Of a stretch of DNA of 64,000 nt, positions 1,693 through 59,465 are shown piece after piece; position 1 is the stretch's first letter, and every line of letters starts with the position of its first letter. The notes under the pieces are model-generated. The model saw nothing but the letters and a program-made list of their open reading frames with translations. It was not told the origin of the DNA and made no database searches. Made by a program: the position numbers and the translations under genes. Origin of the DNA: a virus; IMG/VR virus record IMGVR_UViG_3300045391_004297, positions 13,037-77,036 of that record; one strand, written 5' to 3'.

Positions 1693-2130
1693 TGACTCTC
1701 CTAAACGTCCCGCCTTTTTGACTTTCCTGTCCGATTACTGGTCTACCGCTACGTCTGACTATGCTCCCCACAACGACGCCCGACGTACCTCCACCTGACA
1801 CAACCTGACTTTCCAAACCGCACCATCCGATTTCTGACTGGAGCCAACCTACACCTTCCAAATTACTGACCGAGCAAACCGCGACATGACGCGTCGTGGC
1901 TGACTTGCCATGTTCTCACCAGAACCCACCGTCACCGACGACCCACCCGAACTTCACTGGCCTTACAAACTGACCATCCTGTACGACTTCCAAACCAAAA
2001 ACCGACGGACCCGTACACCGCCACACTTTTCCGACATGACCACGAAACCCTAGACAAGGCGTGTCATGACGCACCTCCCGCCCCTCTCACGTTCGACAAA
2101 GCTCCCCACGCCACACACTCACCATCTCAG
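1693..2130 (+). repeat. periodic non-coding array 1 (GAC-anchored units, C every 5th nt)
   Basis: C at every 5th base 1759-1824 (14 in a row), 1870-1900 (7), 2006-2031 (6), 2050-2075 (6); recurrent TGAC; G-poor + strand. Confidence 0.8.
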
Positions 2131-2211
2131 GTGACAAGTGCTTGCGGCGCCGAGGCGTAAAGTCCAAGATCATTTCCTTCCCACCAACCACAATTTCCCA
2201 AAGGATGTGAC

Positions 2212-2493
2212 ATGCTCCCGGTGTGGGACTTGCGAAATAGGTTCACCCTGCATCAGACGAGTGCCGAAAATGCGCAAAAGCGGGAATTGATTCGTAGTAT
2301 TGCGCATTCTTACGCTACAGTGATCAATGAGACTGTCCCGGATTGTCGGGAAAAGAACCTCGCGATCACGAAGTTGGAGGAAGTGGTGTTCTGGGCGAAC
2401 GCCGCACTTGCTCGGTACGACGCCGCGAAAAACGAAGATCAAGCCTGGCAGCATAAAGAAGAGCCGAAGCCAACGCAGAACAGGACGATGTGA
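2212..2493 (+). CDS. Acb2/Tad1-family anti-defence sponge protein
   Basis: RFTLH...IR..A...I....P.CREKNLAITKLEEVVFWANAALAR matches the Acb2/Tad1-type signature as recalled. Confidence 0.75.
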   Translation: MLPVWDLRNRFTLHQTSAENAQKRELIRSIAHSYATVINETVPDCREKNLAITKLEEVVFWANAALARYDAAKNEDQAWQHKEEPKPTQNRTM

Positions 2494-2587
2494 TGAAGAT
2501 GAAGACGGTGCTAACTTTCCTAACTTTCATTTGCCAAGAGTGTGCGGATAAGCGGCATGACATGTGTCGGGGCGAAACGTGGTGTGA

Positions 2588-3301
2588 TTGTCAGCATGTC
2601 ACGAAGGGAACGAAGTAGTGGCAACTGATTTGAAGTATGGTCGCATCGAGTTTCCAGATGCGCCATGGTCTACGATCGAGGCGGATGAGCCGGTTTTTGT
2701 GTTTCGGGCTCGGGATAATCTGACCCCGGAAGTGATCAAGTTTTATCGGATGTTGTGCGTGCAGAGTAAGTCTCCGCAGCACCATTTGGATTTGATTGAT
2801 CGTGGGTTGCGGCAGGTGAAGGCTTGGCAGCAGTCGCATGAGGTCAAAGATCCGACGTCCAATGATTGGTTGGCGGCGCAAACGTCAGACCCGGTACATA
2901 ATCCCAATACGGAACCGTTGCAAACCACGAACGACGCCGTGATTACTGATGTTCCGTCGTCAGAGCAACGTGATCGGCTTGATCCGACGCATGAGTGGTA
3001 TCTGACGGAGACAAACCAAGACCAGGCTACGAACGCGGAAACATCCACAAATGAAGAAACGTCAGACGAAGAGGAAAGTTACCTTCCGGGTTCCGACGCG
3101 GCCCATTATGTTCCGCCGAATCCGAACAATCCGCAGTCTATTGATTTCTACGAAGAAGACGAGTCAGCGACAAAGATCCGAAACGATTTTGAAACCGGTG
3201 TGCAAGGCAAGACGCAACGAATCGCACCAGGAGATGCTACCGAAAATCCAACCAACCCAACCTACGTTCAAGATCCACTTGATGGTCTTGAGTCACGATG
3301 A
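2588..3301 (+). CDS. hypothetical protein (DEPVF..RA.D N-terminal domain, acidic disordered tail)
   Basis: 237-aa ORF; start may be the GTG before ATDLKYG. Confidence 0.65.
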   Translation: MSACHEGNEVVATDLKYGRIEFPDAPWSTIEADEPVFVFRARDNLTPEVIKFYRMLCVQSKSPQHHLDLIDRGLRQVKAWQQSHEVKDPTSNDWLAAQTSDPVHNPNTEPLQTTNDAVITDVPSSEQRDRLDPTHEWYLTETNQDQATNAETSTNEETSDEEESYLPGSDAAHYVPPNPNNPQSIDFYEEDESATKIRNDFETGVQGKTQRIAPGDATENPTNPTYVQDPLDGLESR

Positions 3302-3519
3302 GCGTTTATAATCCGACTGGTTCAGGCAATGTCCATATGGACGCATCGATTTCAGGAGGTAAGAAGGTGGCTGCGAAAAAGGCTGCGGTGAAGAAGGCTT
3401 CCGGCAACACCGCGAAGGCGGTCAAGTCCGCCACGAAGACCACGAAGGGTAATGCGGCGAAGTCCACGGCTTCGAAGATGGCGCCGGGGATGAAGACGCA
3501 CGGCGGACCGAACTGCTGA
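3298..3519 (+). CDS. small Lys/Ala-rich protein with capsid-like N-terminus
   Basis: AAKKAAVKKA histone-like tract; MSVYNPTGSGNVHMD resembles MCP start. Confidence 0.7.
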   Translation: MSVYNPTGSGNVHMDASISGGKKVAAKKAAVKKASGNTAKAVKSATKTTKGNAAKSTASKMAPGMKTHGGPNC

Positions 3520-3536
3520 AGAGCGGCATGTACTAA

Positions 3537-3728
3537 ATGTCTGCTTACCGAAAGCGACAAGTCAAAGTCCAAATAGCCTGTGAAAACTGCGAGTTTCCTT
3601 GGATGTGGCAAGAGTTAATATATCAAAATACTCTTGGAAATCCAGGGTGGGTCGAGGGTTTGCGAGATTGTCCACGATGCCGAGGCGTCATTGGATGGAG
3701 TGCTGAAGGAGTGGACATTGGCAAATGA
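3537..3728 (+). CDS. small Zn-ribbon protein
   Basis: CENC and CPRC pairs. Confidence 0.6.
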   Translation: MSAYRKRQVKVQIACENCEFPWMWQELIYQNTLGNPGWVEGLRDCPRCRGVIGWSAEGVDIGK

Positions 3729-4068
3729 CTATTCTGGGTGTCTGCGGGTTATTGCGACATCCGGTACGAACGCGGCGAATAACCTGTCGACTTCCGGCGC
3801 TTTGGCCAAGCCCGCGAAGTTGCGAATGGTGACAGTGGCATATTCGGGTACCGCGACTGGTTCGGTGACGGTAACCCTGACCTCTGGAGCTGGCGCAGGC
3901 TACAGTGTGGTGCTCAATACCATCACGTTGGCCAATAACCAGGGGGTGTACATTCCTGCCACACCTATACCGATCAACGCGGATGACTCGATTTTGGTGG
4001 CGGCTCCGGCTGTCGCTAGCGTCACATCTTCGGTGGCCATTTACCTAGACCGTTCCGTGATGGACTAG
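3718..4068 (+). CDS. putative virion beta-strand protein
   Basis: in-frame TTG after AAGGAG; Thr/Ala/Gly-rich. Confidence 0.55.
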   Translation: MANDYSGCLRVIATSGTNAANNLSTSGALAKPAKLRMVTVAYSGTATGSVTVTLTSGAGAGYSVVLNTITLANNQGVYIPATPIPINADDSILVAAPAVASVTSSVAIYLDRSVMD

Positions 4069-4069
4069 G

Positions 4070-4336
4070 GTGTCGACCGCCCGGAAGCTCAAGGTTTTCA
4101 ACTTCTGGGCGACAATTGTTTGGTTAGTGCTGTGCCTGCCAAGTATGTTGTGGTGGAAGAACTCAATTGCTTGGGTCATTCTGATCTCGTTGTGGGCCAA
4201 CGTGATTGGGCATTTCACCGCGTATATTGCGGCCAGAGGCGAGGAATCACAGCAAAAAGGGCACAATCTCACAGAAGCAGATAGGGCTTGGATTAGCGCC
4301 CAATTAGCGCTGACAAGACCAATTACTGATGATTAA
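4070..4336 (+). CDS. membrane protein
   Basis: two hydrophobic helices. Confidence 0.6.
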   Translation: MSTARKLKVFNFWATIVWLVLCLPSMLWWKNSIAWVILISLWANVIGHFTAYIAARGEESQQKGHNLTEADRAWISAQLALTRPITDD

Positions 4337-4386
4337 CCTCCACATTCCACGATAACCTTCAAGTTCTTCTCGAAAGAGGATTCATC

Positions 4387-4635
4387 ATGGCGTTGTATTG
4401 GGAAGTAAGCTTCCGGGTTTCTGCTGGGCAGGATCGATTGACCCGGTACGGTGAGGTCAAGCAGGCCCATCCGGTCCCGCAAGAATGTGTTGATGATGAG
4501 GCTCAGGCACATCAACAAATTGAAGACCAGATCGCTACCGATGGTGAGCCGACCAAGCCATACGCGATTTACACCCAAGGCTGGCGCGATGGGGTAGCTT
4601 TCGGATTCAATGCTCGTATCGATCCCAACGCCTGA
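4387..4635 (+). CDS. hypothetical protein
   Basis: GAGGA RBS, 82 aa. Confidence 0.55.
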   Translation: MALYWEVSFRVSAGQDRLTRYGEVKQAHPVPQECVDDEAQAHQQIEDQIATDGEPTKPYAIYTQGWRDGVAFGFNARIDPNA

Positions 4636-4850
4636 CTGTCCTGCACTGCTGTTCCCTCGATCCAAACTGCCCGATCCTTGCGACTATCCTCCCCAATTTC
4701 CGTCCTCACTGACTAAACTCCGCCACCCGTCCCACTTCGATTGACTATCCTTGGCATACCCTTCCACATCAACAACTTGACTATCCTTCGCAGTCCCGCC
4801 CACCGCGACTATACTTTTCCCCCCGCATCTTTCCAACCCAACACGACACG
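4634..4850 (+). repeat. periodic non-coding array 2
   Basis: units start GACT at 4634,4682,4711,4743,4779,4807; 5-nt C runs 4713-4738, 4745-4770, 4781-4806, 4809-4849. Confidence 0.85.
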
Positions 4851-4868
4851 TTCACCAGGGAGGAAAAT

Positions 4869-6395
4869 ATGGCCGCGCATCAACCCACACCGGGCGATGA
4901 AGAAGACAGCGAGCCGGAAGGTACGCCCACCCCAGAGGGTATGGAGACGCAGGCTGTTCGGGCCAAAAAACTGGAGCGGTTGTACAACATTGACAAGTTT
5001 CGGTACTTTGACCTGATTGGTTATAAGCCGCACCCGAAGCAGTTGTTGTTTCACCGGTCCACGGCGCGCTTCAAGATCCCGATTTGTGGGCGTCGATTCG
5101 GCAAATCCCAGATGGCGGCCAAAGAGTACGAGCCGTTGCTGCTGATTCCGAATCGACGATATTGGATTGTCGGGCCGACCTATGACCTGGGCGAAAAAGA
5201 GTTCCGGATTATCTGGAACGACATGATCATCAAGCTTGGCCTTGGCAAGGAAAAAGATGTCAAGCGGTCATATGCTAAGAAGCAGGGCGATCTATCCATC
5301 GAGTTTCCCTGGCGTACTCGTATTGAGGTTCGTTCGGCAGATCGACCGGAGAATCTGGTCGGCGAGGGTCTTCATGGCGTCATCATGTCCGAGGCCGCTA
5401 AGCACACCCAGGACACTTGGGATCGCTTTATCCGGCCATCCCTCACTGACTACCGTGGTTCGGCGATTTTCCCAACGACACCGGAAGGCCAGAACTGGAT
5501 CTACAACCTGTGGAAGATGGGTCGTGATCCGCAAGAGCCGGAGTTTGAGTCCTGGCAGTTCCCGAGTTGGGAAAACCCGTACGTCTACCCCAAGGGAAAG
5601 CTCGACCCGGAAATCCTGCTGACCATGCGCACCACTCCGAAAGAAGAGTTCCTTCAGGAGTATGCGGCGGACTTCACCTCATTTGCCGGTAAGGTGTATG
5701 GCGAGTGGGACGAAGCGGTGCACGTGCAAGAGGTCAAGTACAATCCGCTGCTGCCCAACTACATCGCTTTTGACTGGGGTTGGGCTGCCCCGATGGCCGC
5801 TGTGGAGTTTCAAATTGACAGCTTTGGTCGGTGCCGGGTGTGGCGGGAGCACTACAAAACACACACGCGGTTGAAGGACTTTCTCAACGAATTGAAAAGC
5901 CGGCCACAGCCGCCGGATTACCATTTGAATTTGACCTTTGGCGACGCTGCCGATCCTGAGGCTGTCGTTTCTGTCTCGGAAGACTTCGCGCCCTGTGTGG
6001 GCGACCCTCGCTCCAAGACCGGCACCCAGGGTGGGTCGTTGGAGTCTGGTAAGCGCGAAGGTATCGAGCTGGTCAAGGGTCTGCTAATGTTGCAGCAGGT
6101 CGATGAGGATGAGTTCGGCACGCCGATCGAGATGCCCTGGTTGACCGTGGATCATTCGTGTTACAACCTAATCCGGGAGTTCAATAATTACCGCAACCAA
6201 GACCCGGTGCGTGGGCAAGACCCACGAGAGCAAACCTTCAAAAAGGATGATCACGCCCTGGATGCGCTGCGTTACGGGTTGATGCATGTGCTGAAGCTCG
6301 GCGCCACCATGAGTTTAGGTGATGTGATGGATCTTTCGGATATGCATGACACGCCAGCTTCTGGCTACTTCACCACGAACAAGACCTTTGCTTGA
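4869..6395 (+). CDS. terL: terminase large subunit
   Basis: CGRRFGKS Walker A, GVIMSE Walker B-like, RuvC-like nuclease with FDWG and KKDDHALDALRY. Confidence 0.95.
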   Translation: MAAHQPTPGDEEDSEPEGTPTPEGMETQAVRAKKLERLYNIDKFRYFDLIGYKPHPKQLLFHRSTARFKIPICGRRFGKSQMAAKEYEPLLLIPNRRYWIVGPTYDLGEKEFRIIWNDMIIKLGLGKEKDVKRSYAKKQGDLSIEFPWRTRIEVRSADRPENLVGEGLHGVIMSEAAKHTQDTWDRFIRPSLTDYRGSAIFPTTPEGQNWIYNLWKMGRDPQEPEFESWQFPSWENPYVYPKGKLDPEILLTMRTTPKEEFLQEYAADFTSFAGKVYGEWDEAVHVQEVKYNPLLPNYIAFDWGWAAPMAAVEFQIDSFGRCRVWREHYKTHTRLKDFLNELKSRPQPPDYHLNLTFGDAADPEAVVSVSEDFAPCVGDPRSKTGTQGGSLESGKREGIELVKGLLMLQQVDEDEFGTPIEMPWLTVDHSCYNLIREFNNYRNQDPVRGQDPREQTFKKDDHALDALRYGLMHVLKLGATMSLGDVMDLSDMHDTPASGYFTTNKTFA

Positions 6396-6580
6396 CTACC
6401 CCCTACACAACAACACCTTGCTTGACTATCCCACGCACGCCAGGACTGACTTCTCTGACTATCCGCGTCCCGCTCGCCCAGTTTCGCCGCTACTCTGCCG
6501 ACACACCTAGCCCACTGCATAACACACCAAAGCAACCGACTGCCCGCCTCCCTAGCCTCCCTAGCCTCCCTCGCCGTAAG
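6394..6580 (+). repeat. periodic non-coding array 3
   Basis: CTTGACTA at 6391 and 6421; C every 5th base 6396-6446 (11 in a row); GCCTCCCTA x~3 at the end. Confidence 0.8.
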
Positions 6581-6588
6581 GGAAAATA

Positions 6589-6771
6589 TTGACCAGCCGT
6601 GCCGAACATCTGGCAGCCGCGTGTGGGGTCCTGTTCACCACAGCGGTGCTGGCGTATGTCACGAAAAAGTATCTACTCGATGTGCACCCATTACCCAGCA
6701 AACTTGTGTATTTGGCAAAATCGTGCAGACACTGGGTTGACTTAGGGGGTGTCGAGTATGACGACGATTGA
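6589..6771 (+). CDS. small membrane protein
   Basis: TTG start after AAGGGA, one hydrophobic helix; overlaps portal start. Confidence 0.4.
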   Translation: MTSRAEHLAAACGVLFTTAVLAYVTKKYLLDVHPLPSKLVYLAKSCRHWVDLGGVEYDDD

Positions 6772-8446
6772 GACCAGCGACGGGAAAATTGCTGATCTTG
6801 AGGCGTATGCGGCGCAGCGGCAGATGTCGCTGCAAGAGGCAGTTTCGGGCAAGTACCAGATTGTGGCGGCCAACCACGATCCGGCCAACGGTTCGTACGT
6901 CATCTTGGCCGACCAGTCGCAGAACATTGAGCCCGGGTTTGCCACTCGGGAGCTTGGTTATTCTTCGCCGAGTCCGTGGACGGCTTGGACCCGTGATGAG
7001 CGGGTGCCGGAGCTTCGGGACAAGATTGGCTTGCGCACCTACTACGACATGAAGCGGGCCGATGGCACGATTCGTGGGGCGTTGCGCTTGCTCAAAACGC
7101 CGATTCAGGCGGCTCGGTGGTTTGTTGAGCCCTACGATGACACCGCGCTGAACAAGTCCATCGCCGAGTTTGTCGAAGAGAACCTGTTTTTGTACCTGTC
7201 TACGCCATGGTCGCAGGTGGTCGAAGACGCGCTGTTGATGTGCGACTACGGGTACATGGCCTTTGAGAAGGTGTGGACCGAGCCTGGCTCAGATGCCGAT
7301 AAGGTCAAAGACGGCAAGCTTCGGTTGGGTAAGTTGGCTGCTCGCCACCCGATGGACATTCGGGAGTGGGTGTGGGACGAAAACGGTGGCCCGGATGGGT
7401 TCATCATGGAAAATATTTCCATCCAAGGTACCGGGAACATGCCCGGTCCGGCGTTGTCGAGCTTCGGCATCCCGAACGCAGCGGTCACCGGCAACTACAA
7501 CCAGTTCAACAACCCGACGTTTGACCCCAAAACGGTGACGATTCCGATCACCAAGGCGATCGTGTTCACCTTGGAGAAGGAAGCCGGGGATCTGCGCGGG
7601 GTGTCGATTTTGCGCAGTGCCTACAAGCACTACTACTACAAAGACACCATGTACAAAATCGACGCGATCCAAAAAGAGCGCCACGGTATTGGCGTGCCGA
7701 TCATTAAGATGCCGTTGGGTTTTTCCACCGATGATCGGGCACTGGCCGAGAACTTGGGGCGTAACCTGCGCACCAACGAACGGGCGCACATTGTCGTGCC
7801 GATGAACTGGGAAGTGGCCTTTGCCAAGTTGGAAGGTCAGCCGGTGGATTGTTTGAAATCCATCGAACACCACGACATGAAGATCAAGTCCAACATTCTG
7901 GCCCCGTTCATGGATGAGTCCAACGTGAACCCGGATTCCCTGGACGTGTACTACAAGGCGACCCGCTACATTGCTAACACGTTGTGCGACACCGTCAACA
8001 AGTACCTGATTCCGCAGTTGGTCGGGATGAACTTCGCTCGGGGCAAAAACCCGTGTCTTCGGGTGCGTCGCATTGGTGAAGAAGAGTCGTTGCGCACGTT
8101 GTCGTTTGCTTTCCGCAACTTTGTTGGTGCCGGGGCTATTCGTCCGGATGACCCGTTGGAGAAGTTCCTGCGTTCTGAGCTGGACTTGCCGCCTGCTGAC
8201 CCGGACACGGCTCGGATGCCACTTCCACCCGGTGGTGGGCAAGACCCGAACGCCATGCCTGCCGATGGTGGGGACAGTCAGCACCAGCAAAATACCCAAA
8301 CCAAAAAGAAGCCCGAACCGCAAGTCGTTGTCGATGGCGTGCCACATGCTCCACAGCCGTCTCGGGTTGGTCCGCCTCGACAGGCGAATACGCCACCGGT
8401 ACACACCGGCAAGAGCAACTCAAGCCGCGATAACTCCGGAGGTTAA
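6749..8446 (+). CDS. portal protein (DUF935/Mu gp29-like)
   Basis: follows TerL; GYMAFEKVW, G.SILRSAY.HYYYK, ERHGIGVP motifs. Confidence 0.9.
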   Translation: MSSMTTIETSDGKIADLEAYAAQRQMSLQEAVSGKYQIVAANHDPANGSYVILADQSQNIEPGFATRELGYSSPSPWTAWTRDERVPELRDKIGLRTYYDMKRADGTIRGALRLLKTPIQAARWFVEPYDDTALNKSIAEFVEENLFLYLSTPWSQVVEDALLMCDYGYMAFEKVWTEPGSDADKVKDGKLRLGKLAARHPMDIREWVWDENGGPDGFIMENISIQGTGNMPGPALSSFGIPNAAVTGNYNQFNNPTFDPKTVTIPITKAIVFTLEKEAGDLRGVSILRSAYKHYYYKDTMYKIDAIQKERHGIGVPIIKMPLGFSTDDRALAENLGRNLRTNERAHIVVPMNWEVAFAKLEGQPVDCLKSIEHHDMKIKSNILAPFMDESNVNPDSLDVYYKATRYIANTLCDTVNKYLIPQLVGMNFARGKNPCLRVRRIGEEESLRTLSFAFRNFVGAGAIRPDDPLEKFLRSELDLPPADPDTARMPLPPGGGQDPNAMPADGGDSQHQQNTQTKKKPEPQVVVDGVPHAPQPSRVGPPRQANTPPVHTGKSNSSRDNSGG

Positions 8447-8447
8447 G

Positions 8448-8687
8448 ATGGCAGAGGATCGGCCCCGCAAACCGTATCGTAAAGAGCGGGTTGTTTCGAT
8501 TCGGTTCAGCGAAGACGAACTACGCGGTTTGCGGGAACGGGCCGACAAAGCCCATATGAGCCTGTCGGATTACATCCGAACCCGAATGAACTACGATCCG
8601 TTGATGTACCGTACTTTTGTGCCCGCCCAATCCAACACCTACACGATTGGCACTTCTTCGGTTACCTCAACGTTCATTTACCAATGA
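8448..8687 (+). CDS. ribbon-helix-helix (MobC-like) DNA-binding protein
   Basis: VSIRFSEDEL..LRERA.KAHMSLSDYIR. Confidence 0.75.
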   Translation: MAEDRPRKPYRKERVVSIRFSEDELRGLRERADKAHMSLSDYIRTRMNYDPLMYRTFVPAQSNTYTIGTSSVTSTFIYQ

Positions 8688-8860
8688 CGTGGCTACCCGC
8701 CCAATGGCACATCCCGAGCTGACTACCCGCCGTACGCCATCCCCAGCGAGCTGACATGCCCCGGCCAAACACGAGCATCCCAAGGCACGCTTACTGACTT
8801 AACACGGCACCACTACCCACCTCTTGTCCACAGACCCCCGCATAAAGCCCAACGCTAGAC
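8686..8860 (+). repeat. periodic non-coding array 4
   Basis: TGAC-anchored units with GAC at 8686,8721,8753,8796; C every 5th base 8798-8828 (7); internal repeats CTACCCGCC and CGAGCTGAC. Confidence 0.7.
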
Positions 8861-48380: not shown

Positions 48381-48408
48381 CTTCCTTTCGGCCGAAATTA
48401 GTGATGCG

Positions 48409-48499
48409 TGCCCCGACCTGGAATCGAACCAGGAACACCTACGCCTAAAGGCCAACGGGATTGGTTACCCGCCGTGCTCTGCCATTGAGCTATCGGGGC
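48409..48499 (-). ncRNA. aberrant tRNA-like RNA
   Basis: GCCCCGA/TCGGGGC acceptor, GCTC-AATGGCA-GAGC D arm, CCTGG-TTCGATT-CCAGG T arm; 7-bp anticodon stem, 8-nt loop, extra hairpin. Confidence 0.75.
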
Positions 48500-48506: not shown

Positions 48507-49394
48507 CTAAACGGCTTTCCAGTCGGTGACTTCGTACTTGCCGTAACCCTGCGAGCGCGAAGCGCCGATACCCTGCTGCTCCCCGGTGAGCCACAGCAGG
48601 GCCCACTCTTTGTCGGAGAAGTCGTAGTCGGTGGTCACGTGGAATTCCAGCACCGCGTTTTCCACGTACTCTTCGTACTGGATGCCAGAACCCCGGAAGG
48701 TGTGCACGAAGCGCTGGTTGATCCCAGTGGGCTCACCCTTGACCGGCTCGTTGAGGTAGATGCGCGTCTCGGGCACGAACACGTGCTCAGCGAAGAACGA
48801 CAATGTGCCCTTGCGGGTCGGACCCCAACGCTCCTTGGGCCAACGCACATTCGCCGCTTCCTTGATGGCGGCCTTGGCCTGGCGACCCTCGATGTACAGG
48901 CCGTTTTTGGGATCACGCTTGAACCCGTTGAGGTGCTTGTTCATGTTGACGATCTTGGTGGCTTCGTTGATGTCCACGCCCTTGTCGAGCATGACCTCAG
49001 CGACCATTTCGCGGATGACGTCTTCCTTGTCCACGCCAAGCTTGGTCTTGAGCCAACCTTCGGCAACCTTCGGGTCAGACGGGGTACCACCGGCGATGAC
49101 CGGGACCGTCAACTGGATGCGGAAGTTGTACGGGTACGCGGTCGGGCGGTACTGTTCGAAGACAGATGCCACAGTGGGCTGTCCTTTCTGGATACGGTCA
49201 ATCAGTTCTTGGTTTGGTGCTGGTGGATTTGGATCGACCCGATTGAACCAAACCTCCTCAACAACAGGTTTCGTCGTTGTTTTGCGTTTTGGCTTCGGCT
49301 TTTCCTCGATCTCAGGTTCCACTGTTTCGAGTTCGGGATCGACAGCTCGGCTGGACCGATTGCTGCGCGTCCTGGCGGTGACGAATTCCACCAT
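48507..49394 (-). CDS. stand-alone Cas7/RAMP-like protein
   Basis: LYIEGRQAKAAIKEAA (RAMP IPG..KG..R equivalent), thumb-like GINQRFVHTFRGSGIQYEE, C-terminal Gly loop GIGASRSQGYGKYEV. Confidence 0.8.
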   Translation of the reverse strand: MVEFVTARTRSNRSSRAVDPELETVEPEIEEKPKPKRKTTTKPVVEEVWFNRVDPNPPAPNQELIDRIQKGQPTVASVFEQYRPTAYPYNFRIQLTVPVIAGGTPSDPKVAEGWLKTKLGVDKEDVIREMVAEVMLDKGVDINEATKIVNMNKHLNGFKRDPKNGLYIEGRQAKAAIKEAANVRWPKERWGPTRKGTLSFFAEHVFVPETRIYLNEPVKGEPTGINQRFVHTFRGSGIQYEEYVENAVLEFHVTTDYDFSDKEWALLWLTGEQQGIGASRSQGYGKYEVTDWKAV

Positions 49395-49408: not shown

Positions 49409-50077
49409 CTATTGGTTTGTCAGACGTTCATCCGGCTCGGGAAAAGCGTGGTGCCGGTCGTCTTGGCGGACCCGAGCTGAACGAGTTTTGGGCGATGTGC
49501 GCTTCGCCTCTTTTGTTTCCTTTGCCAGCGAAGCATCCGAGATTGACATCCACATCTGGGCAAGACGCTGCTCATCGTAAATGTCAGCAACCGTCTTGGT
49601 CGGATCGTCGTCCAACCGTCGGGCCAGCACATTCAAAAACGCCGCTTGCATGGCGTTTTGATCGGCTCGCTTCTGGTAGGAATCTGCCACAAAGTGCAGA
49701 TCTTTCGCGGTCATTTGAGACAGTCGCTTGCGCAGCCCGTCAGCGGTCACGTGCACCATAGCGAAGAATCCGCCGAGTGCTTCGTTGTCGCCTTCGCTGA
49801 ACTTTTTGGCTGCCTCGTTGAAAGCCATCCGATTTGCGTTGCGCCGCACATGCGTGCGCAGTGAGGCGTCTCGGCGATTGATCGCTGTTCGCACAACTTC
49901 TTTGGCTTGGAACAAAAGCCAACCGATGAGCAGGTCTTTGTCAGTTTCTGTCAGTTTGCGCACGATTTCAGCGGCGATGTTGGCTGAGTTGTAAGCACCT
50001 TCAGCCGTGTATTCATCGATCATTCGCCGCATTTCGAGGGCGTAGTTGCGATAGTAGATAGGTTCGTCTGCGGCCAT
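49409..50077 (-). CDS. helical hypothetical protein upstream of Cas7-like gene
   Basis: 222 aa, AAAGG RBS; 14-nt gap to next gene. Confidence 0.7.
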   Translation of the reverse strand: MAADEPIYYRNYALEMRRMIDEYTAEGAYNSANIAAEIVRKLTETDKDLLIGWLLFQAKEVVRTAINRRDASLRTHVRRNANRMAFNEAAKKFSEGDNEALGGFFAMVHVTADGLRKRLSQMTAKDLHFVADSYQKRADQNAMQAAFLNVLARRLDDDPTKTVADIYDEQRLAQMWMSISDASLAKETKEAKRTSPKTRSARVRQDDRHHAFPEPDERLTNQ

Positions 50078-50102: not shown

Positions 50103-50129
50103 TTACCCAGGCAAGCCCAACCAGACCGG
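50103..50129 (-). repeat. GGY-NN pentamer run in operon leader
   Basis: minus strand CC GGT CT GGT TG GGC TT GCC TG GGT AA. Confidence 0.6.
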
Positions 50130-50174
50130 TGTGGGACATGTGACCATATGGTCTACATCGATGATGTTCGATAA

Positions 50175-52226: not shown

Positions 52227-52227
52227 G

Positions 52228-52300: not shown

Positions 52301-52303
52301 AAA

Positions 52304-52375
52304 CCTACCCAATAGCCGAATAGCGGTTCAGGCAGCTTCCCCACGGAGGTTAGGGAAATCCGGCTATTGGGTAGG
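52304..52375. repeat. 15-bp inverted repeat
   Basis: CCTACCCAATAGCCG ... CGGCTATTGGGTAGG. Confidence 0.85.
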
Positions 52376-52383
52376 AGCATTTC

Positions 52384-53451: not shown

Positions 53452-53484
53452 TTGGCTTCCTTTACGGAAAATGGATGAAATTAT

Positions 53485-53694
53485 TTAGTTGTTAATCGTG
53501 GTCAGGAAGTTCTTCCAGTCTTGCCGCGTGAACGACAACATCGGACCCTGACGGTCTTTGGTGTCCCGAACGTAAACGGTGTCGTCAGCCTTGACCTCGA
53601 CGCAGTTCATCGGTGAACGAGTGGACTTGCGCCAGTGGTACTTGACTTCCACGCATTCTCCTTCACCCATGCTGCGAGAACTCTTACGCCACAT
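53485..53694 (-). CDS. DUF397 (BldB-like) protein
   Basis: WRKSSRS...CVEV twice, VRDTKD..GP.L.F...W..F. Confidence 0.85.
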   Translation of the reverse strand: MWRKSSRSMGEGECVEVKYHWRKSTRSPMNCVEVKADDTVYVRDTKDRQGPMLSFTRQDWKNFLTTINN

Positions 53695-53992
53695 CGGTGG
53701 GCACCTCCTTGATGAAATCGGTATAATCCGGTGGCGGTTTGGGACCAATATAGAACAAGCATGAACAGTTGCTGTACGGGGTATGGCTATGTTCGCGAAA
53801 GTACTGTACCGTGCACTTACCCGTGCCCCCGTCCTTATGAGACGAGAACAAATGGTCGCAGTCACAGGTGTATTTCACCCGCTCGTCCGGTTTGGCCAAG
53901 CGTTTGCCCTGCCACATGCCGTATCGAACGAAGCCGAAACCTACCACTGTACCCGCGATAAGACCGAGATAGAACATGGTTGGTTGACTCAT
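53684..53992 (-). CDS. membrane protein with Cys/His motif
   Basis: N-terminal TM; C.CDH...H...GKC...C.C. Confidence 0.6.
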   Translation of the reverse strand: MSQPTMFYLGLIAGTVVGFGFVRYGMWQGKRLAKPDERVKYTCDCDHLFSSHKDGGTGKCTVQYFREHSHTPYSNCSCLFYIGPKPPPDYTDFIKEVPTDVA

Positions 53993-54171
53993 TTCTCAGT
54001 TTCATTTTGTGTTTTGGCTATCATGTGGTTCAGCCAACGTTTCTCGGCGTCGAGCTGACTGAAGCACTTACCCGAGTCATACCGGCCGCACGAGCAACGC
54101 GCTCTGTAGATGGGGGAAACATCGCCCACGTAGTCGAATTCATCCAGTAGGAGTTCGTGCGTCGTGGCCAT
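53989..54171 (-). CDS. small CxCG protein
   Basis: RARCSCG...H. Confidence 0.55.
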   Translation of the reverse strand: MATTHELLLDEFDYVGDVSPIYRARCSCGRYDSGKCFSQLDAEKRWLNHMIAKTQNETEK

Positions 54172-54526
54172 ATTGGGTGACCAATCGAAGATGGTATTCG
54201 CGTTCCTCGGTAGCACGTGCCTGGGAGGTTAGCGGGTCACTGAGCCAACCGCAAGCGCAGAGCTGGAAGTAATAGTAGCCAACCTTGAAACGCTTCATGA
54301 CGTGGACGCGCAGGTGCTCGTGCCTGATAGTCCACATTTGCACCAGGTGCTCACGAAGATCATACGCCGCGTCGATCTTGCGCTCATGTTCGACACCTTG
54401 CCATGGGCACATGCATTCGGCGTAGTACGGTCCGTCTTCCTCGCCCCAGATTTCGTAGAGGTAATGCTCACGCTTGGACTCTTTGAGCAACCAGTAGTGG
54501 TCCAGGAGCTTTCCCTTATTTGGCAT
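54140..54526 (-). CDS. tandem CxCGW protein (paralog of 54516)
   Basis: starts MPNKGKLLDH; two CxC..H units. Confidence 0.65.
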   Translation of the reverse strand: MPNKGKLLDHYWLLKESKREHYLYEIWGEEDGPYYAECMCPWQGVEHERKIDAAYDLREHLVQMWTIRHEHLRVHVMKRFKVGYYYFQLCACGWLSDPLTSQARATEEREYHLRLVTQYGHDARTPTG

Positions 54527-54899
54527 CTCGAACCGCCTTACTCTGGGCTCGATACGCCGCATCGGCATGTTCCCTGAATCGGTCGTGTGCGTGCTCAGTC
54601 TTGGACGAGATTGTGCACCAACCACATTCGCAAATGATCGCGAACTTGGTAGCGGTATCGTCCCAATCGCCGGACCAGGCATGGTGGTACTTGCCATGGA
54701 GTTTCCAAGCAAGCCCCATGTGGTACGCCATCATGCTGACCACTCCGGTGAAGGTCGGCTCTATGGCTTCCATCTTGCATCGGCAAATGGCCCGGTATCT
54801 CCCTTTGTCATGGAGAATTTGCTTTAAGTAGTGCGATTCACCATCTATGACAAGCCGGGTTTCGTTATGGTGATCCAGAAGTTTTCCCTTGTTGGGCAT
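54516..54899 (-). CDS. tandem CxCGW protein
   Basis: starts MPNKGKLLDH; two CxC..H units. Confidence 0.65.
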   Translation of the reverse strand: MPNKGKLLDHHNETRLVIDGESHYLKQILHDKGRYRAICRCKMEAIEPTFTGVVSMMAYHMGLAWKLHGKYHHAWSGDWDDTATKFAIICECGWCTISSKTEHAHDRFREHADAAYRAQSKAVRDAK

Positions 54900-54929
54900 C
54901 GTTGGCTCGTTTCATGGGTTGTCATTATT

Positions 54930-54956
54930 GAGGGGTTCACCCGAAGGTGAACCCCT
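54930..54956 (-). terminator. GC-rich hairpin after tRNA cluster
   Basis: AGGGGTTCACC-TTCG-GGTGAACCCCT. Confidence 0.7.
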
Positions 54957-55007
54957 GTTTTTAGTGTCCGTCACAAGAGATTCTTCGGGATCTCGTGAGC
55001 CACACCG

Positions 55008-55080
55008 TTGGCGAAGCAGGACTCGAACCTGCAACACCGGCCGTGTGAAAGCCGTGCTCTACCACTTGAGCTATTCGCCA
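55008..55080 (-). tRNA. tRNA-Val(CAC)
   Basis: cloverleaf, loop TTCACAC. Confidence 0.88.
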
Positions 55081-55139
55081 TGGGGCGGAAGGATACGATC
55101 TTCCGCCTTTTATCTGTTGGTGACGTGGAGGCGTCTCCG

Positions 55140-55212
55140 CTGACCAGACAGGACTCGAACCTGTAGCCATCCGGTTAACGGCCGGAAGCTCTGCCAATTG
55201 AGCTACTGGTCA
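55140..55212 (-). tRNA. tRNA-Asn(GUU)
   Basis: cloverleaf, loop CCGTTAA (C33). Confidence 0.88.
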
Positions 55213-55220
55213 ATTTCAGG

Positions 55221-55293
55221 TGAGCGAAGTGGGACTTGAACCCACGACCGAGGAATTATGAGTTCCCTGCTCTACCTGCTGAGCTATTCGCCC
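55221..55293 (-). tRNA. tRNA-Met/Ile2(CAU)
   Basis: cloverleaf, loop CTCATAA. Confidence 0.9.
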
Positions 55294-55434
55294 TATCTTG
55301 TTTGCACTATATCTGGGTCACTGCAACCACAATCACCCAAATCTGCGCCGAAATCAAGGATAATAATGGCGGCGAGAATGACGGTGATGACGCGTTGCCA
55401 CCAGTTCATGCGCTGGAATGTTTGACCAATCACG

Positions 55435-55506
55435 TGACCCACCTCGGACTCGAACCGAGAACTCCCGACTTAAGAGGACGGTACTCTACCATTGAGTTAG
55501 CGGGTC
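55435..55506 (-). tRNA. tRNA-Lys(CUU)
   Basis: cloverleaf, loop CTCTTAA, T.T mismatch in anticodon stem. Confidence 0.88.
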
Positions 55507-55765
55507 GAAGCCGGTAGTCCCGAAAGGGAAATGGCTACGGGGGGAGCCCATCAGCTCCGGGACTACCGGGGTAACACGGCGACTGTCGCTGCTGATTCAT
55601 GAGCGGAGCAACGAGAAAACTGCGCCTGCCGTAGATCTCCAAGGAAGTTCGATAGAACAACAAACGGCAACACAACACGACAATCGCCAGCTTACCCCAA
55701 CAGTAGGACACCCCTGGAAGAGAACGAAACGTCGGCATCGTGCTCAAATGCCTACTGTTGGGTAG

Positions 55766-55839
55766 TACCCAAGGTGGGAGTCGAACCCACAAACACCAGA
55801 TTTTGAATCTAGCGGCTTTGCCAGTTTGCCTACTCGGGT
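55766..55839 (-). tRNA. tRNA-Leu(CAA), short variable region
   Basis: loop TTCAAAA; Leu-type D arm; variable region TGTTT. Confidence 0.85.
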
Positions 55840-55993
55840 AGGGCGGTACTGAGCATCGGCAAGGGAATGGGACGCAGGACCGTATTAACCGACCAATCGA
55901 ACTGAACGACCGAATTCTGCTGCGACTCACATTCGATCAAGTTCGCTCAATTGTTTGCTCAGTACCTCTGGGCGTTCCTAGAATTGCCCATTG

Positions 55994-56065
55994 TGCCCTC
56001 GGGAGGAATCGAACCTCCATCTCAGATTCCGTAGATCTGCGTCGTGTCCATTGGACCACGAAGGC
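55994..56065 (-). tRNA. tRNA-Arg(ACG)
   Basis: cloverleaf, loop CTACGGA. Confidence 0.9.
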
Positions 56066-56184
56066 TTGGCGGGAGCCGGGCCGTATCCTGACCCGGCCCC
56101 CTGTAGGTGAAGTAAGCAAAATCGGTGTTCAAGACCGATGCTGTATTTGCAGTACAGCTGCTTCAGCCCACCCCATGAGAAAAA

Positions 56185-56335
56185 TTTGAGATCTACACCA
56201 GCGGCGTTTAACCAACATGCTCAATCATAATACCTGGCGGATTTCCGCTATCCCACCCCGCCATGAAGAGGCGAGGGCCAGATTTGAACTGGCGTTTCCA
56301 GAGTGTGTGGCTGTTGGACTCGACCTGGTGCTGGG
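56185..56335 (-). ncRNA. YrlA-like circularly permuted tRNA mimic, copy B (ends approximate)
   Basis: order T arm, 3' acceptor CCTCGCC, loop TCTTCAT, 5' acceptor GGCGGGG, D arm GGAT/ATCC; CCAGG/TCTGG closing stem. Confidence 0.75.
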
Positions 56336-56369
56336 GCTTTTTGTGGGATTCAGTCTCGGGCAAGAGTCT

Positions 56370-56505
56370 GAGACTGAGTGGGATGCCTAGCTGCAAGCCA
56401 CTGCACCCCGGCATGAAGAGCCGGGGGGAAGAGTCGAACTTCCGACGGCTAGGATAATGGTCCCAGTTGACGATGATTTCGGGTGAACCCCTACTTTACT
56501 CAGTT
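56370..56505 (-). ncRNA. YrlA-like circularly permuted tRNA mimic, copy A (ends approximate)
   Basis: T arm GGAAG/CTTCC, CCCCGGC-TCTTCAT-GCCGGGG, D arm GCAG/TTGC, GCTAGG/CCTAGC closing stem. Confidence 0.75.
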
Positions 56506-56710
56506 TGAGTTTGTGCCCTCTCCCGAGGGAGTTTAGGTGGTGGGTGAGGTAGTACAAATCAGTCTACCATTGGTCTCTTACGAGACGGCCTCAGTTACCC
56601 CTGGCGACAAATCCAGGCCCACCCAAGTTTGTGGCGGCAGTGCTACCAGCTCAACACTCTATCTTGTACACCGGTTCGGCACTTTTATCTAGTGTTAGGC
56701 CACCAAAAAA

Positions 56711-57445
56711 CTACTCGCCGAGCAAGTAGTCGAAGATCGCCTTGCCGACCGGAACCTCGACCACATCGGTCTGGTTGGCCTGCTCCCGAGCGTACTTCAC
56801 GGCCTTGCCCAGCTTCTCCACCTTCTCGCGAAGCCGGTTGATGCGCTGCTGCGACACCGCGCCGGAGTACTTCACCGTGGACCAGGTACCGACGATCACG
56901 TCCTCGAAGTACATCTCCACCTGCGCCGGATGCCGATCGGTTGCCTCGGCCTTGACGTGGTTTCGCGGAACCTTCTTGGTTCGGGTGGTCTTGATCGGAT
57001 CGGTGGCGTACGCGGCGGTTGTCTCGTCGTAGTGCCAGTCCTCGGTCGGGTCAAGCACCGGAATGGCCTTGATGATCGCGGCCAAGTCGTTGATCTGCTT
57101 TTCCAGGAACAGCAGGTACGTGACCGGCGCATTCTTGACCAGTGTGGTGCCGTCAACCACCACATCGGCAAGTGCCCGAGTGTTGGTGGCGTCCTTGGCG
57201 AAGGTCACATCGAAGAGCTTGACCATTTCGTTACGGACGTCGTTGAGCACGTCTTCGGCGCGAACCTGCAACTTCGTGGATTCGGCCGGGAGCTGATCGC
57301 CGTCGTCATCCTTGGGCGTGTAGTTGCGCGAGATGCCCGCAAGAGGCTCCTTCTTCTGGAGCGTCTTGTAGAACTTGTTGGTCTCGGTGTAGGTGGACGT
57401 CTTGACGCCCTTCTCTACGGCCAAGATCTGGTTGAGCTTTGGCAT
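56711..57445 (-). CDS. conserved hypothetical protein (KLNQI.AVEKG family)
   Basis: recognisable widespread bacterial family; HVKAEATDRHPAQVE motif. Confidence 0.85.
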   Translation of the reverse strand: MPKLNQILAVEKGVKTSTYTETNKFYKTLQKKEPLAGISRNYTPKDDDGDQLPAESTKLQVRAEDVLNDVRNEMVKLFDVTFAKDATNTRALADVVVDGTTLVKNAPVTYLLFLEKQINDLAAIIKAIPVLDPTEDWHYDETTAAYATDPIKTTRTKKVPRNHVKAEATDRHPAQVEMYFEDVIVGTWSTVKYSGAVSQQRINRLREKVEKLGKAVKYAREQANQTDVVEVPVGKAIFDYLLGE

Positions 57446-57549
57446 TTTGAGGTTTATCCCTTGTTAGTTTGAATGGTGCAAAGAGCATGGGCATGACGAT
57501 ACTATGGAGTTCCGTCGACTGACTTTTGCTTAAGTAGATCATGCCCAAG

Positions 57550-57621
57550 TGGCGGGGCTGGGAGTCGAACCCAGATCGTACGGCTTATGAGGCCGCCAGC
57601 ATACCATTAGCCCACCCCGCA
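57550..57621 (-). tRNA. tRNA-Met(CAU), fMet-like
   Basis: loop CTCATAA; unpaired 1:72 (T.C) but lacks three consecutive G-C pairs. Confidence 0.8.
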
Positions 57622-57757
57622 GTGAACCCTAATCCCGTGCACAAGACTAGGGTCAGAGGTAGCAGTTTTCTGGGTAACCCACTACATAAACCCTTCGGAC
57701 CAACTATCCCGCCTATTTCCGAGTACCCCGGATGCGTCATCAAGTTGGTCAGGAAGT

Positions 57758-58417
57758 CTAATACCGGATGTCTTTCCGGAGTTGGTCGTTCTCATAGATC
57801 AATTCAAGCATCAACTTGCGGGTGTTAATCCCGCGCTTGCGGTACCGGTTGCATGTCCTGCACAGGATCTGCACCTTGTGCATGTGCTTGCGGAAGTTTT
57901 TGTAGGTGTAGTCAAGCACGCTACGGGCTTCTTTGATCTCGGTGACGAAGTCTTCCTTCACCGACAAGTACATCTTATCGGTGTCGTCAAGTGGATTTGG
58001 TACGTGTCCACACCACTCGCACTTGCCACCTCGATCTTCCAACACTTCCGATTTGCGTTGCTGGCGGCGTAGGAAGTTCGCTTGCTTAGCATACTCTAAC
58101 CGACACGGCTGACACTGACCTTTGTAGTAGGGCAGTCGTTTGTTGCAATCGTAACAAAGTTTGACCGGCTCGTTGTTCATCAGCACGAAGGTGCCGTCTT
58201 CGTTTTCTACCCGAGGAAGACCAGTTGCGTCTGATTCGTTGCTCTTGAATTCGATGCGCCGCTTGTACCAGAACTTCTTGGGCTGTTCCTGCTTCGGCCG
58301 GTCTTCGATTTCTTGGAGCAATTCCAGCATCGCGTCGTAGTCTTCGCGAACTTCCGGGTGGTTGTGCATGGGATTGAAGTAAGGGGTGCCGTCCGCTTCG
58401 TTAACCACTTCAGGCAC
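57758..58417 (-). CDS. Zn-finger / degenerate HNH-like protein
   Basis: CYDC..CQPC, RGGKCEWCG...ILCRTCN. Confidence 0.6.
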   Translation of the reverse strand: MPEVVNEADGTPYFNPMHNHPEVREDYDAMLELLQEIEDRPKQEQPKKFWYKRRIEFKSNESDATGLPRVENEDGTFVLMNNEPVKLCYDCNKRLPYYKGQCQPCRLEYAKQANFLRRQQRKSEVLEDRGGKCEWCGHVPNPLDDTDKMYLSVKEDFVTEIKEARSVLDYTYKNFRKHMHKVQILCRTCNRYRKRGINTRKLMLELIYENDQLRKDIRY

Positions 58418-58726
58418 CCCCTACAACTATGCACAGCCTTCGGGTATTACTCCCGGCTCTGTGCGGCTAGCTTCGGCACAACGGTGAGGTCTCCTCTGTC
58501 AAGCTACCACCCGCTGTGCTATAGACACCAGCACCGAAGTGCTGACAGAACGGTGTCTCTGGTTCCACCCTTTCGGCGTGGTCAGGGGGACAAACCTAAC
58601 CACATTGCCGGGCGCAGGGGCAACCATGAAGCCCTACCCGCTTAAGTGGCCGTCTTCTCATGACACTCGCGACGGCCAGGCGAGCTGGTACCGTATGACC
58701 AAACCGGAAAAACGCCATACGAGTCA

Positions 58727-59086
58727 CTACCAGTAGTAGTATTTGGAACGGTTCCGAGCCTGGTAGTTAGCAATCTCCAAGTCGGTGTCACCGTTAGCAG
58801 TGTAGTCCTTGACAATCAACCGTCCACGATCACGCACCCTCACTCGTTCCGGGTTGTGCCAGGTGTGGTCGATGTACCATTTCGGTGGCGCCATTTCCCA
58901 GAAGTGTCGCTCATCGACAGCATGCCAGTAGCAGGAAGTAAATCGGCGACGGTAGTGGGCTTGTCCCTTGAACAGTTCACCGGGCAACGTGCAGGGCTTG
59001 CGCCCAACACTGCAACTCCAGTGATGGACTGGACGGTAGTTATCAGACCGCATCCAGTAGGGCAGGTCTTTGTCGGTTCTCGACAT
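58727..59086 (-). CDS. hypothetical protein
   Basis: GAGGA RBS; MSRT start, His/Cys/Trp-rich. Confidence 0.65.
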   Translation of the reverse strand: MSRTDKDLPYWMRSDNYRPVHHWSCSVGRKPCTLPGELFKGQAHYRRRFTSCYWHAVDERHFWEMAPPKWYIDHTWHNPERVRVRDRGRLIVKDYTANGDTDLEIANYQARNRSKYYYW

Positions 59087-59139
59087 GACGTAAGTTCCTC
59101 TCTCGGAAACCTATGTCATGGCAATCACCTCTTTCGTCA

Positions 59140-59465
59140 CGTCGGGTAAGGCGGGATTCGTGTCTCTGGCTGGGTCGGAAAGTCAAAAAGGCAGTCGCCG
59201 TTGTCCGCTTTTGTTCGACTGCAAAAGAGCCGTCATGGTTTTGGGACGACTCGAATAAATCAAGATTCAGTAAACCATTCAGTTCTCAAGAAACCGCGAC
59301 TTTCGGTAAGAGATGGTCCCTGCATCGCGCGGGGAGTCCCTGACCCGTCGTGCTAGTACCCACCCTAGCTCGGCTGACGAAGGTCGTCAACCCTGTTGAT
59401 CGAGTGGATCGATCGTGTCTGGTATGTCCGTTTTGTCTGAGTCATCGGGGGTGGGCACAGTCAAT
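59140..59465 (-). repeat. non-coding block related to periodic arrays (array 5)
   Basis: minus strand C-rich TGACT units; 16-nt GCCTTTTTGACTTTCC identical to 1712-1727; periodicity weaker. Confidence 0.55.

What the first reader, a model, noticed from the sequence alone, without database searches (positions are those of the whole stretch)
1693..59465. Candidate CRISPR-independent RNA-guided system: lone Cas7-like RAMP plus dispersed 5-nt-periodic non-coding arrays
Seen: one Cas7/RAMP-like ORF (48507-49394) with no cas1/2/3/5/6 and no repeat-spacer array. Four intergenic blocks (plus a weaker fifth) consist of ~28-40 nt GAC-anchored units in which every 5th base is C and the four bases between vary. 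Known: Cas7 filaments hold crRNA with a fixed periodic kink (every 6th nt flipped in type I). I also recall reports of phage Cas7-like 'VIPR' systems with GGY/NN pentamer RNAs (from memory, unchecked). Inference: each unit is a guide whose invariant base is the per-subunit anchor and whose variable bases read a target. The anchor here is a single base (G on one strand, C on the other) rather than strict GGY, and the arrays are scattered through the head operon far from the gene, so this could be a new variant.
Basis: partly seen in the sequence, partly recalled or inferred. Interest (0 to 1): 0.95.

Follow-up and report, generated by a model that had tools for sequence, protein, structure and literature searches.

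The report
Phage VIPR system with scattered guide arrays
This soil phage carries a VIPR system (a lone Cas7-like protein plus five-base-periodic guide-RNA arrays, a CRISPR relative first described in 2026), and it is unusual only in that its roughly 100 short guide units are scattered over a dozen gaps between genes rather than sitting beside the protein gene.

Summary
ORF 48507-49394(-) folds as a Cas7/Csm3-like RAMP. Its five best AlphaFold-cluster matches are exactly the five founding Vipr proteins of the 2026 VIPR preprint. Blocks at 1.7, 4.6 and 6.4 kb beat dinucleotide shuffles for 5-nt C periodicity. The 8.7 kb block passes only an anchor-phased test, and the 59.1 kb block is weak.

The genome is complete (92,387 bp, terminal repeats) and holds seven more blocks outside the window. 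In total there are about 4.3 kb of arrays and 94 units, each built as [GNNNN]x3-7 plus GTCRG. Of 42 related loci, 39 keep such an array within 1.5 kb of vipr, usually wedged between a conserved 222-aa gene and vipr. Here that array is missing and the arrays are dispersed instead.

This is a VIPR member with the single-base (NNNNG) repeat that the preprint already lists. It is not a new kind of system. This scan has already noted VIPR arrays in at least 142 other genomes.

Three things are unresolved: which strand is the RNA, the pairing rule and the targets. Every block has its C-periodic strand on the sense strand of neighbouring genes. Either the guides are antisense or the anchor here is C. 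No RNA data were available and no target was found.

The parts
48507..49394 (-). vipr: 295-aa Vipr-family RAMP. It has a core of about 217 aa and a disordered N-terminal extension of about 75 aa.
   Evidence: Foldseek against PDB: Csm3 and type VII Cas7, E about 2e-6. The top five AFDB clusters are the five founding Viprs. 1560 homologues were found. The G-loop is invariant.
49409..50077 (-). Candidate vap: a 222-aa helical protein, 15 nt upstream of vipr.
   Evidence: A homologue lies upstream of vipr on the same strand in 25 related contigs (27 fetched loci). It matches phrog_4604, of unknown function. The model is mostly helical (one small beta-hairpin), pLDDT 86, with no convincing structural match.
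1690..2135 (.). Array B1: C-periodic on the + strand, 22 YGAC anchors, 9 units with at least 3 pentamers.
4634..4850 (.). Array B2: directly upstream of terL, 6 units opening with GACTAT(C/A)C.
   Evidence: terL identified
6393..6580 (.). Array B3: between terL and portal. Its first TTGAC motif contains the terL stop codon.
8686..8860 (.). Array B4: downstream of the portal gene (a short ORF, 8447-8687, lies between), 4 units.
   Evidence: anchored test only
59140..59465 (.). Block B5: weak and degenerate, G-periodic on the + strand, among minus-strand genes.
   Evidence: 22/48, p = 0.006; not significant
50103..50129 (-). Five G-first pentamers (GGTCT GGTTG GGCTT GCCTG GGTAA) in the leader of the vap-vipr pair. 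Doubtful.
   Evidence: not conserved in the closest relative L001

Best explanation
What it is. The window is part of a complete 92-kb soil siphovirus that carries a VIPR system. The system consists of a two-gene module (a 222-aa helical vap candidate plus the Vipr RAMP) and about 94 short guide units, spread over 12 intergenic blocks. Five blocks are in the window.

Unit structure. Read on the G-rich strand, each unit is 3-7 pentamers of the form GNNNN. One base is fixed and four are essentially free. The unit closes with a fixed motif, (GGNTW)GTCRG, that is locked in phase with the pentamers. Units often abut with a 1-nt register shift.

How it most likely works (by homology with the SUSP1 VIPR system). 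One Vipr protomer binds each pentamer. It holds the fixed base and presents the free bases, so a filament of 5-8 protomers reads a DNA target and silences it. The target is most likely a competing mobile element.

Pairing rule (inferred). Each unit has only 4-7 pentamers, so most or all four free bases per pentamer must be read for a target to be specified. The likeliest rule is four paired bases and one skipped.

Shown here: the fold and its link to the family; the periodic arrays; gene-array co-occurrence in relatives; the orientation rule; unit-scale insertions and deletions between strains.

Inferred: transcription, binding, the pairing rule and the targets. I rate the RNA strand as about even between the G strand and the C strand.
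For: Protein:
- The fold is RAMP/Csm3-like.
- The five best AFDB cluster hits (E 2e-11 to 3e-7) are the five UniProt entries the VIPR preprint names as its founders.

Arrays:
- The periodicity exceeds shuffles and is phased to the anchor motif.
- In the pentamer logo, position 1 is G in 86-100% of cases (partly imposed by the parse) and positions 2-5 are near random. This matches the NNNNG repeats named in the preprint's Methods.
- The 1-nt register shift between units is compatible with the 'staggered arrays' of the preprint's Fig. S18 legend.

Relatives:
- 39 of 42 related loci carry an array of the same design within 1.5 kb of vipr. Its consensus is CCGACTACCC, which reads GGGTAGTCGG on the other strand.
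- The other three are one locus with a short sub-threshold array and two cut at the contig edge.
- Strain X6, a diverged variant (most contigs 90-99% identical), differs by indels of about 10-20 nt in the arrays. One is a 20-nt insertion that carries a new CTGAC anchor.
Against: - No RNA run holds this phage, so expression and strand are untested.
- No target was found. In an 840-kb local database, nine pairing rules scored no better than shuffled guides. Two gapped scans of IMG/VR gave no hit.
- In a low-probability alignment (hhalign probability 0.39%), the base-contacting residues of SUSP1 Vipr are not conserved: D177 aligns with Ala, W178 with Ser, and E71/M72 with Arg/Gln. The mode of base recognition therefore cannot simply be carried over.
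- There is no long structured 3' tail like the SUSP1 pseudoknot.
Confidence: 0.8

Rival explanations
1. The arrays are cis-acting elements of the phage's own transcripts. The C-rich, G-poor sense-strand RNA sits between cistrons, and Vipr (with the 222-aa protein) coats it to control termination, processing or translation of downstream genes. On this reading the arrays are not trans-acting guides.
For: - All 12 blocks have the C-periodic strand on the sense strand of their neighbours.
- Arrays run from the upstream stop codon to the downstream ribosome-binding site, here and in at least 20 related loci.
- From general knowledge: C-rich, G-poor untranslated RNA resembles a Rho loading site. This was not tested.
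Against: - The four free positions per pentamer are near random and differ from unit to unit. A pure protein-loading platform would not need that.
- The published family acts through programmable guides.
- Typical relatives have a single array at the vipr locus, not arrays spread through their operons.
Confidence: 0.1
2. The repeated (T/A)GTCRG motif is a DNA site for a sequence-specific protein, comparable to the oriented stoperators of cluster A mycobacteriophages or to partition and iteron arrays. The link to Vipr would then be incidental.
For: - The motif is asymmetric, intergenic and oriented with transcription in every block.
- It loosely resembles the L5 stoperator core TGTCAAG. That resemblance is from my own memory and was not checked.
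Against: - A DNA site does not explain a 5-nt phase locked to the motif over 20-35 nt.
- Motif-plus-periodic arrays track the vipr gene in unrelated phage backbones whose terL is not homologous.
- The density, up to 70 motifs in 1.6 kb, is unlike stoperators.
Confidence: 0.04
3. The dispersed blocks are decaying or selfish copies of the ancestral vap-array-vipr array. They spread by recombination and are no longer used.
For: - The array between vap and vipr is absent here (15-nt gap).
- B5 and parts of B1 are degenerate.
- Many GTCR motifs have no phased pentamers: 38 of 169.
Against: - vipr and vap are intact. By a rough codon-usage score, vipr looks like the long genes of this genome (score 80).
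- 94 units keep both phase and motif.
- About 4.3 kb of a 92-kb packaged genome is retained, always in one orientation.
- The strains show turnover of array segments of about 10-20 nt rather than erosion.
Confidence: 0.05

Closest known systems
VIPR systems (Vipr protein plus vrRNA), bioRxiv 10.64898/2026.04.26.720920. The closest sub-forms are the non-canonical NNNNG repeats and the 'staggered arrays'.
   Same: - A minimal stand-alone RAMP in a phage, whose nearest fold clusters are the founding Viprs.
- Arrays with 5-nt periodicity.
- A two-gene locus with an accessory gene.
- A single fixed G per pentamer, as listed in the Methods.
- Units that abut with a 1-nt offset, as in the Fig. S18 legend.
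   Different: - The arrays are not beside vipr. They lie in 12 intergenic blocks up to about 45 kb away, including the packaging-head operon and the genome termini.
- Units are short: 4-7 pentamers, against 9-16.
- There is only a motif of about 10 nt, not a structured 3' tail.
- The paper's figures and tables are not held, so I could not see which of its seven types this clade belongs to, or how it oriented these arrays.
Type II VIPR of Escherichia phage SUSP1 (KT454805), the experimentally characterised system
   Same: - One protomer per pentamer is the expected architecture.
- On the G strand, the repeat tract is followed by GGGTAGT... in two SUSP1 vrRNAs. The units here end in GG(G/A)TAGTC.
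   Different: - SUSP1 repeats are GGY/NN and lie G-periodic on the sense strand of vipr. Here the sense strand is C-periodic.
- The GGY-contacting residues D177, W178, E71 and M72 align with Ala, Ser, Arg and Gln (low-confidence alignment).
- SUSP1 has 4 vrRNAs. This phage has about 94 units.
Solo or orphan vrRNAs away from vipr (bioRxiv 10.64898/2026.10.15.759431) and non-canonical 5-mer VIPR arrays (bioRxiv 10.64898/2026.10.21.760802)
   Same: - vrRNAs can lie outside the vipr locus.
- Repeat motifs other than GGY exist next to Vipr-like folds.
   Different: - The solo vrRNAs described there sit in elements that lack vipr. Here the gene and the scattered arrays share one genome.
- The non-canonical motifs listed there still fix three positions (for example GAC/NN and CAC/NN). 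Here only one position is fixed.
Cas7 backbone of class 1 CRISPR effectors (Csm3, Cmr4, type VII Cas7)
   Same: - RRM core, thumb and G-loop fold.
- A periodic kink in the bound RNA.
   Different: - No cas1 (tested), no other cas gene noticed, and no repeat-spacer array.
- The period is 5 nt, not 6.

Membership tests
VIPR | Vipr protein: a minimal RAMP (RRM core, thumb, glycine-rich loop) related to the founding Viprs | tested here: met
   PDB fold hits are Csm3/Cas7, E about 2e-6. AFDB cluster ranks 1-5 are A0A2D6XG06, X1U2U4, A0A1F4YLN4, A0A661D0E2 and A0A0F9A1L0, the five entries named in the paper's Methods. The G-loop is invariant. Model pLDDT is only 67, with the helical insert (residues 107-154) poorly predicted.
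VIPR | Not part of a CRISPR-Cas locus: no cas operon and no CRISPR array | tested here: met
   The complete genome has no Cas1 and no other Pfam RAMP match. The window has no repeat-spacer array. Not every ORF was profiled.
VIPR | Tandem pentamer repeats with fixed and hypervariable positions (GGY/NN or a related consensus such as NNNNG) | tested here: met
   G1 is fixed and positions 2-5 are near random. The periodicity exceeds shuffles and is phased to the anchor.
VIPR | Arrays flank or adjoin the vipr gene | tested here: not met
   The nearest clear array is about 40 kb away, and vap and vipr are separated by only 15 nt. The feature is met in 39 of 42 relatives. It is typical of the family rather than strictly defining, since solo vrRNAs are published.
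VIPR | Accessory vap gene in an operon with vipr | tested here: inconclusive
   A 222-aa helical protein is conserved upstream of vipr in 25 related contigs. Whether it equals one of vap1-6 could not be checked. Its fold has no informative match.
VIPR | Invariant structured 3' tail after the repeat tract | tested here: inconclusive
   Only a conserved motif of about 10 nt, (GGNTW)GTCRG, follows the tract on the G strand. It resembles the first bases of two SUSP1 tails. No pseudoknot-sized element fits between units.
VIPR | vrRNAs are expressed, bound by Vipr, and guide DNA binding | not testable with these tools
   No RNA runs were listed. No targets were found.
CRISPR-Cas class 1 effector | Cas7 acting with Cas5, Cas6, a large subunit and a CRISPR array | tested here: not met

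The most novel reading that the evidence does not exclude
In this actinophage-type Vipr clade the functional RNA is the sense, C-periodic strand. The guide arrays have no promoters of their own. They ride inside the phage's operon transcripts, from stop codon to ribosome-binding site, and are cut out of them.

The per-protomer anchor has switched from G to C. That would fit the replacement of the G-contacting residues of SUSP1 Vipr.

This phage takes the design furthest. It has moved its whole guide repertoire (about 94 units) into a dozen intercistronic gaps, so guide supply is tied to early and late gene expression.
Probability: 0.35. Interest if true: 0.7.

Novelty: new variant of a known kind. 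Interest (0 to 1): 0.45.

Why it matters
VIPR is a months-old class, and so far it has been examined in 20-kb windows centred on vipr. This genome shows that a phage can keep its guides far from the protein gene, and in large numbers: about 4.3 kb, or 4.7% of the genome. Locus-centred surveys may therefore undercount guide repertoires.

The strict orientation rule, together with the tight stop-codon-to-RBS packing across the clade, sets up a clean and testable question. Either the guides are antisense transcripts, or the anchor base and RNA polarity differ from the characterised GGY systems.

A one-base anchor with four free bases per protomer would also be a denser code than the published two-of-five code. 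That matters for engineering.

Tried and rejected
- Pfam and PHROGs on the Vipr protein: no hit.
- Profile search against PDB sequences: nothing.
- blastn of the locus against GenBank phages: no match.
- RNA evidence: no RNA run was listed in either search.
- Target search, local: 71 guides under nine pairing rules (2-4... specifically 3 or 4 paired bases per pentamer, 0-2 skipped) against the own genome plus 42 related loci (840 kb). The results were indistinguishable from shuffled guides, and every perfect hit was a self-hit inside an array.
- Target search, IMG/VR: two exact gapped patterns (four paired, one skipped; six pentamers each) gave 0 hits.
- Whole-block lag-5 autocorrelation is a poor statistic here, because the register resets at every unit. 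I replaced it with run-length and anchor-phased tests.
- Complex prediction of Vipr core with the 222-aa protein: no verdict (score 0.31 against a mark of 0.32). This is evidence neither way.
- Fold search of the 222-aa protein: no match with E below 0.001 in PDB, and only weak similarity to uncharacterised and DUF222 entries in AFDB.
- The GGY-like run in the vap leader (50103-50129) is not conserved in the closest relative. I do not count it as a vrRNA.
- Promoter and terminator scans around the arrays were uninformative.
- Fetching the rest of the closest relative's contig failed, because the record is not held.
Full report
**Context.** The window is genome positions 13037-77036 of a complete 92,387-bp virus record with direct terminal repeats. 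The sequence occurs in several soil metagenomes. The first 68 bases repeat at the end of the contig. A codon-usage gene model gives two divergent arms. Plus-strand packaging, head and tail genes run from genome 13.7 to 44 kb: terL 4869-6395, portal 6749-8446, protease, major head protein and tape measure. Everything else is on the minus strand, including DNA polymerase, primase, an SNF2 helicase and ten tRNAs.

**The protein.** ORF 48507-49394(-) encodes 295 aa with no Pfam or PHROG match. It has 1560 homologues in the 90%-clustered metagenome protein database (E <= 0.001) and 530 clusters at the 50% level. Most are about 217 aa long, so the first 75 or so residues here are a lineage-specific disordered extension. 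An AlphaFold model (pLDDT 67) matches Csm3, Cmr4 and type VII Cas7 in the PDB at E about 2e-6. In the AlphaFold cluster library, ranks 1-5 are A0A2D6XG06, X1U2U4, A0A1F4YLN4, A0A661D0E2 and A0A0F9A1L0. These are exactly the five entries that the VIPR discovery preprint names as its founding non-CRISPR RAMPs. I therefore file the protein as a Vipr. The genome has no Cas1 and no other RAMP, and the window has no repeat-spacer array.

**The arrays.** C recurs at every fifth base for 14, 11 and 13 consecutive steps in blocks B1, B2 and B3. Dinucleotide shuffles of each block reached those run lengths in 0, 11 and 3 of 2000 trials, and other periods gave nothing similar. The register resets at each YGAC anchor, so whole-block autocorrelation understates the signal.
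- I therefore counted the fixed base at 5, 10, 15 and 20 nt from each anchor. The results were 59/88, 19/24, 18/24 and 10/12 for B1-B4, and 22/48 for the weak fifth block. Anchors outside the arrays give 0.27.
- On the G-rich strand, each unit reads as 3-7 pentamers GNNNN, closed by (GGNTW)GTCRG. Position 1 is G in 86-100% of cases, partly by construction of the parse. Positions 2-5 are close to random.
- The motif is rigidly phased with the tract on one side only. The next unit often begins at the last G of GTCRG, which gives a 1-nt overlap. This is compatible with the 'staggered arrays' of the preprint's Fig. S18 legend, but I could not see that figure.

**Beyond the window.** The same design fills seven more blocks, in genome coordinates: 61-1120, 3311-3880, 80951-81170, 84721-84990, 85381-85560, 87301-87460 and 91641-92380.
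- The total is about 4.3 kb, with 169 anchors and 94 units of at least three phased pentamers.
- The terminal repeat of the genome lies inside an array.
- In all 12 blocks the C-periodic strand is the sense strand of the neighbouring genes.

**Relatives.** A pattern-plus-tblastn scan of IMG/VR returned 41 loci with 38-63% identical Viprs, and an exact-protein look-up gave one closer relative at 82%.
- By a strict detector, 39 of the 42 have a periodic, strongly skewed array within 1.5 kb of vipr. Of the three others, one has a short array below threshold and two are cut at the contig edge.
- The unit motif is the same: CCGACTACCC, which reads GGGTAGTCGG on the other strand.
- The usual layout is a homologue of the 222-aa protein, then an array of 0.3-2 kb, then vipr, all on one strand. 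The array often starts at the TGA stop of the first gene and runs to the vipr ribosome-binding site.
- Two relatives read nearly or wholly end to end have one main array at the locus, with 70 and 24 anchors, and little elsewhere.
- Their terL is not homologous to this phage's terL, so the module moves between phage backbones.
- In this phage the array between the two genes is missing (15-nt gap) and the arrays are dispersed instead. This is the real peculiarity.
- A diverged strain variant (most contigs 90-99% identical) differs by indels of about 10-20 nt in B1 and B3, including a 20-nt insertion with a new CTGAC anchor.

**Which strand is the RNA?** This is unresolved.
- For the G strand: every experimentally characterised vrRNA is G-anchored. 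In SUSP1 I confirmed that the GGY strand is the sense strand of vipr. On the G strand, tract and closing motif have the same polarity as in SUSP1, and two SUSP1 tails begin GGGTAGT, as do the unit ends here.
- For the C strand: in 34 of 42 loci, and in all 12 blocks here, the C strand is the sense strand. The arrays are packed between a stop codon and the next ribosome-binding site, which leaves no room for an antisense promoter.
- In the three 'inverted' loci, the array in two (L041, L042) lies in the leader of a divergent minus-strand gene, so it is again C-sense there; for L040 this was not shown.
- In a weak profile alignment, the SUSP1 residues that hold G1, G2 and Y3 align with Ala, Ser, Arg and Gln.
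- I rate the two strands as roughly even.

**Targets and rule.** With only 4-7 pentamers per unit, a two-of-five code would give 8-14 informative bases. That is too few to specify a site, so most free positions are probably read. This is an inference. Local searches under nine rules, and two exact IMG/VR scans, found nothing above controls.

**Literature and verdict.** The class, its non-canonical repeats (NNNGG, YNNNG, NNNNG), staggered arrays and solo vrRNAs are already in three 2026 preprints. This scan has already logged VIPR arrays in at least 142 genomes. The finding is therefore a real VIPR system and a new variant in its layout (scattered, transcription-oriented, many short units). It is not a new kind of system.

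Noticed in passing
window 48408-48499 (-): A 92-nt tRNA-like gene lies directly downstream of vipr. ARAGORN calls it with a four-base anticodon (acca), and it scores 46 bits as tRNA in Rfam. It is one of ten minus-strand tRNA genes between 48.4 and 57.6 kb.
   Followed up: no
window 232-445: A cluster of 9- and 19-nt tandem repeats (GGACATATGGTATATG...) lies in the gap between the two divergent gene arms. It may be an origin or an operator region.
   Followed up: no
window 50141-50152 (-): The palindrome GACCATATGGTC lies just upstream of the vap-vipr pair. Its CCATATGG core is kept at the same place in the closest relative (L001 9134-9141). It may be an operator.
   Followed up: partly
L045 535-2451 (-), i.e. 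genome 535-2451: A 638-aa ORF runs into array A2. Its last 170 or so residues are a P/S/D/Q/T-rich tail encoded by the C-rich strand of the array. The ORF is probably over-extended. Otherwise, array sequence is being translated.
   Followed up: no
window 56185-56505; L001 2854-4494: The close relative L001 encodes a Ro60/TROVE-vWA protein. This genome has no TROVE match. I did not examine them.
   Followed up: partly
genome 1-68 and 92320-92387: The direct terminal repeat of the genome lies inside the largest array (91.6 kb through 1.1 kb). The physical or assembly ends therefore fall within guide units.
   Followed up: no
unit-closing motif, all arrays: The closing pentamer TAGTC is also the fixed pentamer of an unexplained 8-nt-period array family (cluster #8,581) described in bioRxiv 10.64898/2026.10.21.760802. 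A possible link was not examined.
   Followed up: no
L041 about 9433 and L042 about 9385 (minus strand): In the most divergent Vipr loci, the array lies in the 5' leader of a divergently transcribed gene (N-terminus MPDIPILGNG...) rather than between the 222-aa gene and vipr. That gene's identity is unknown.
   Followed up: partly
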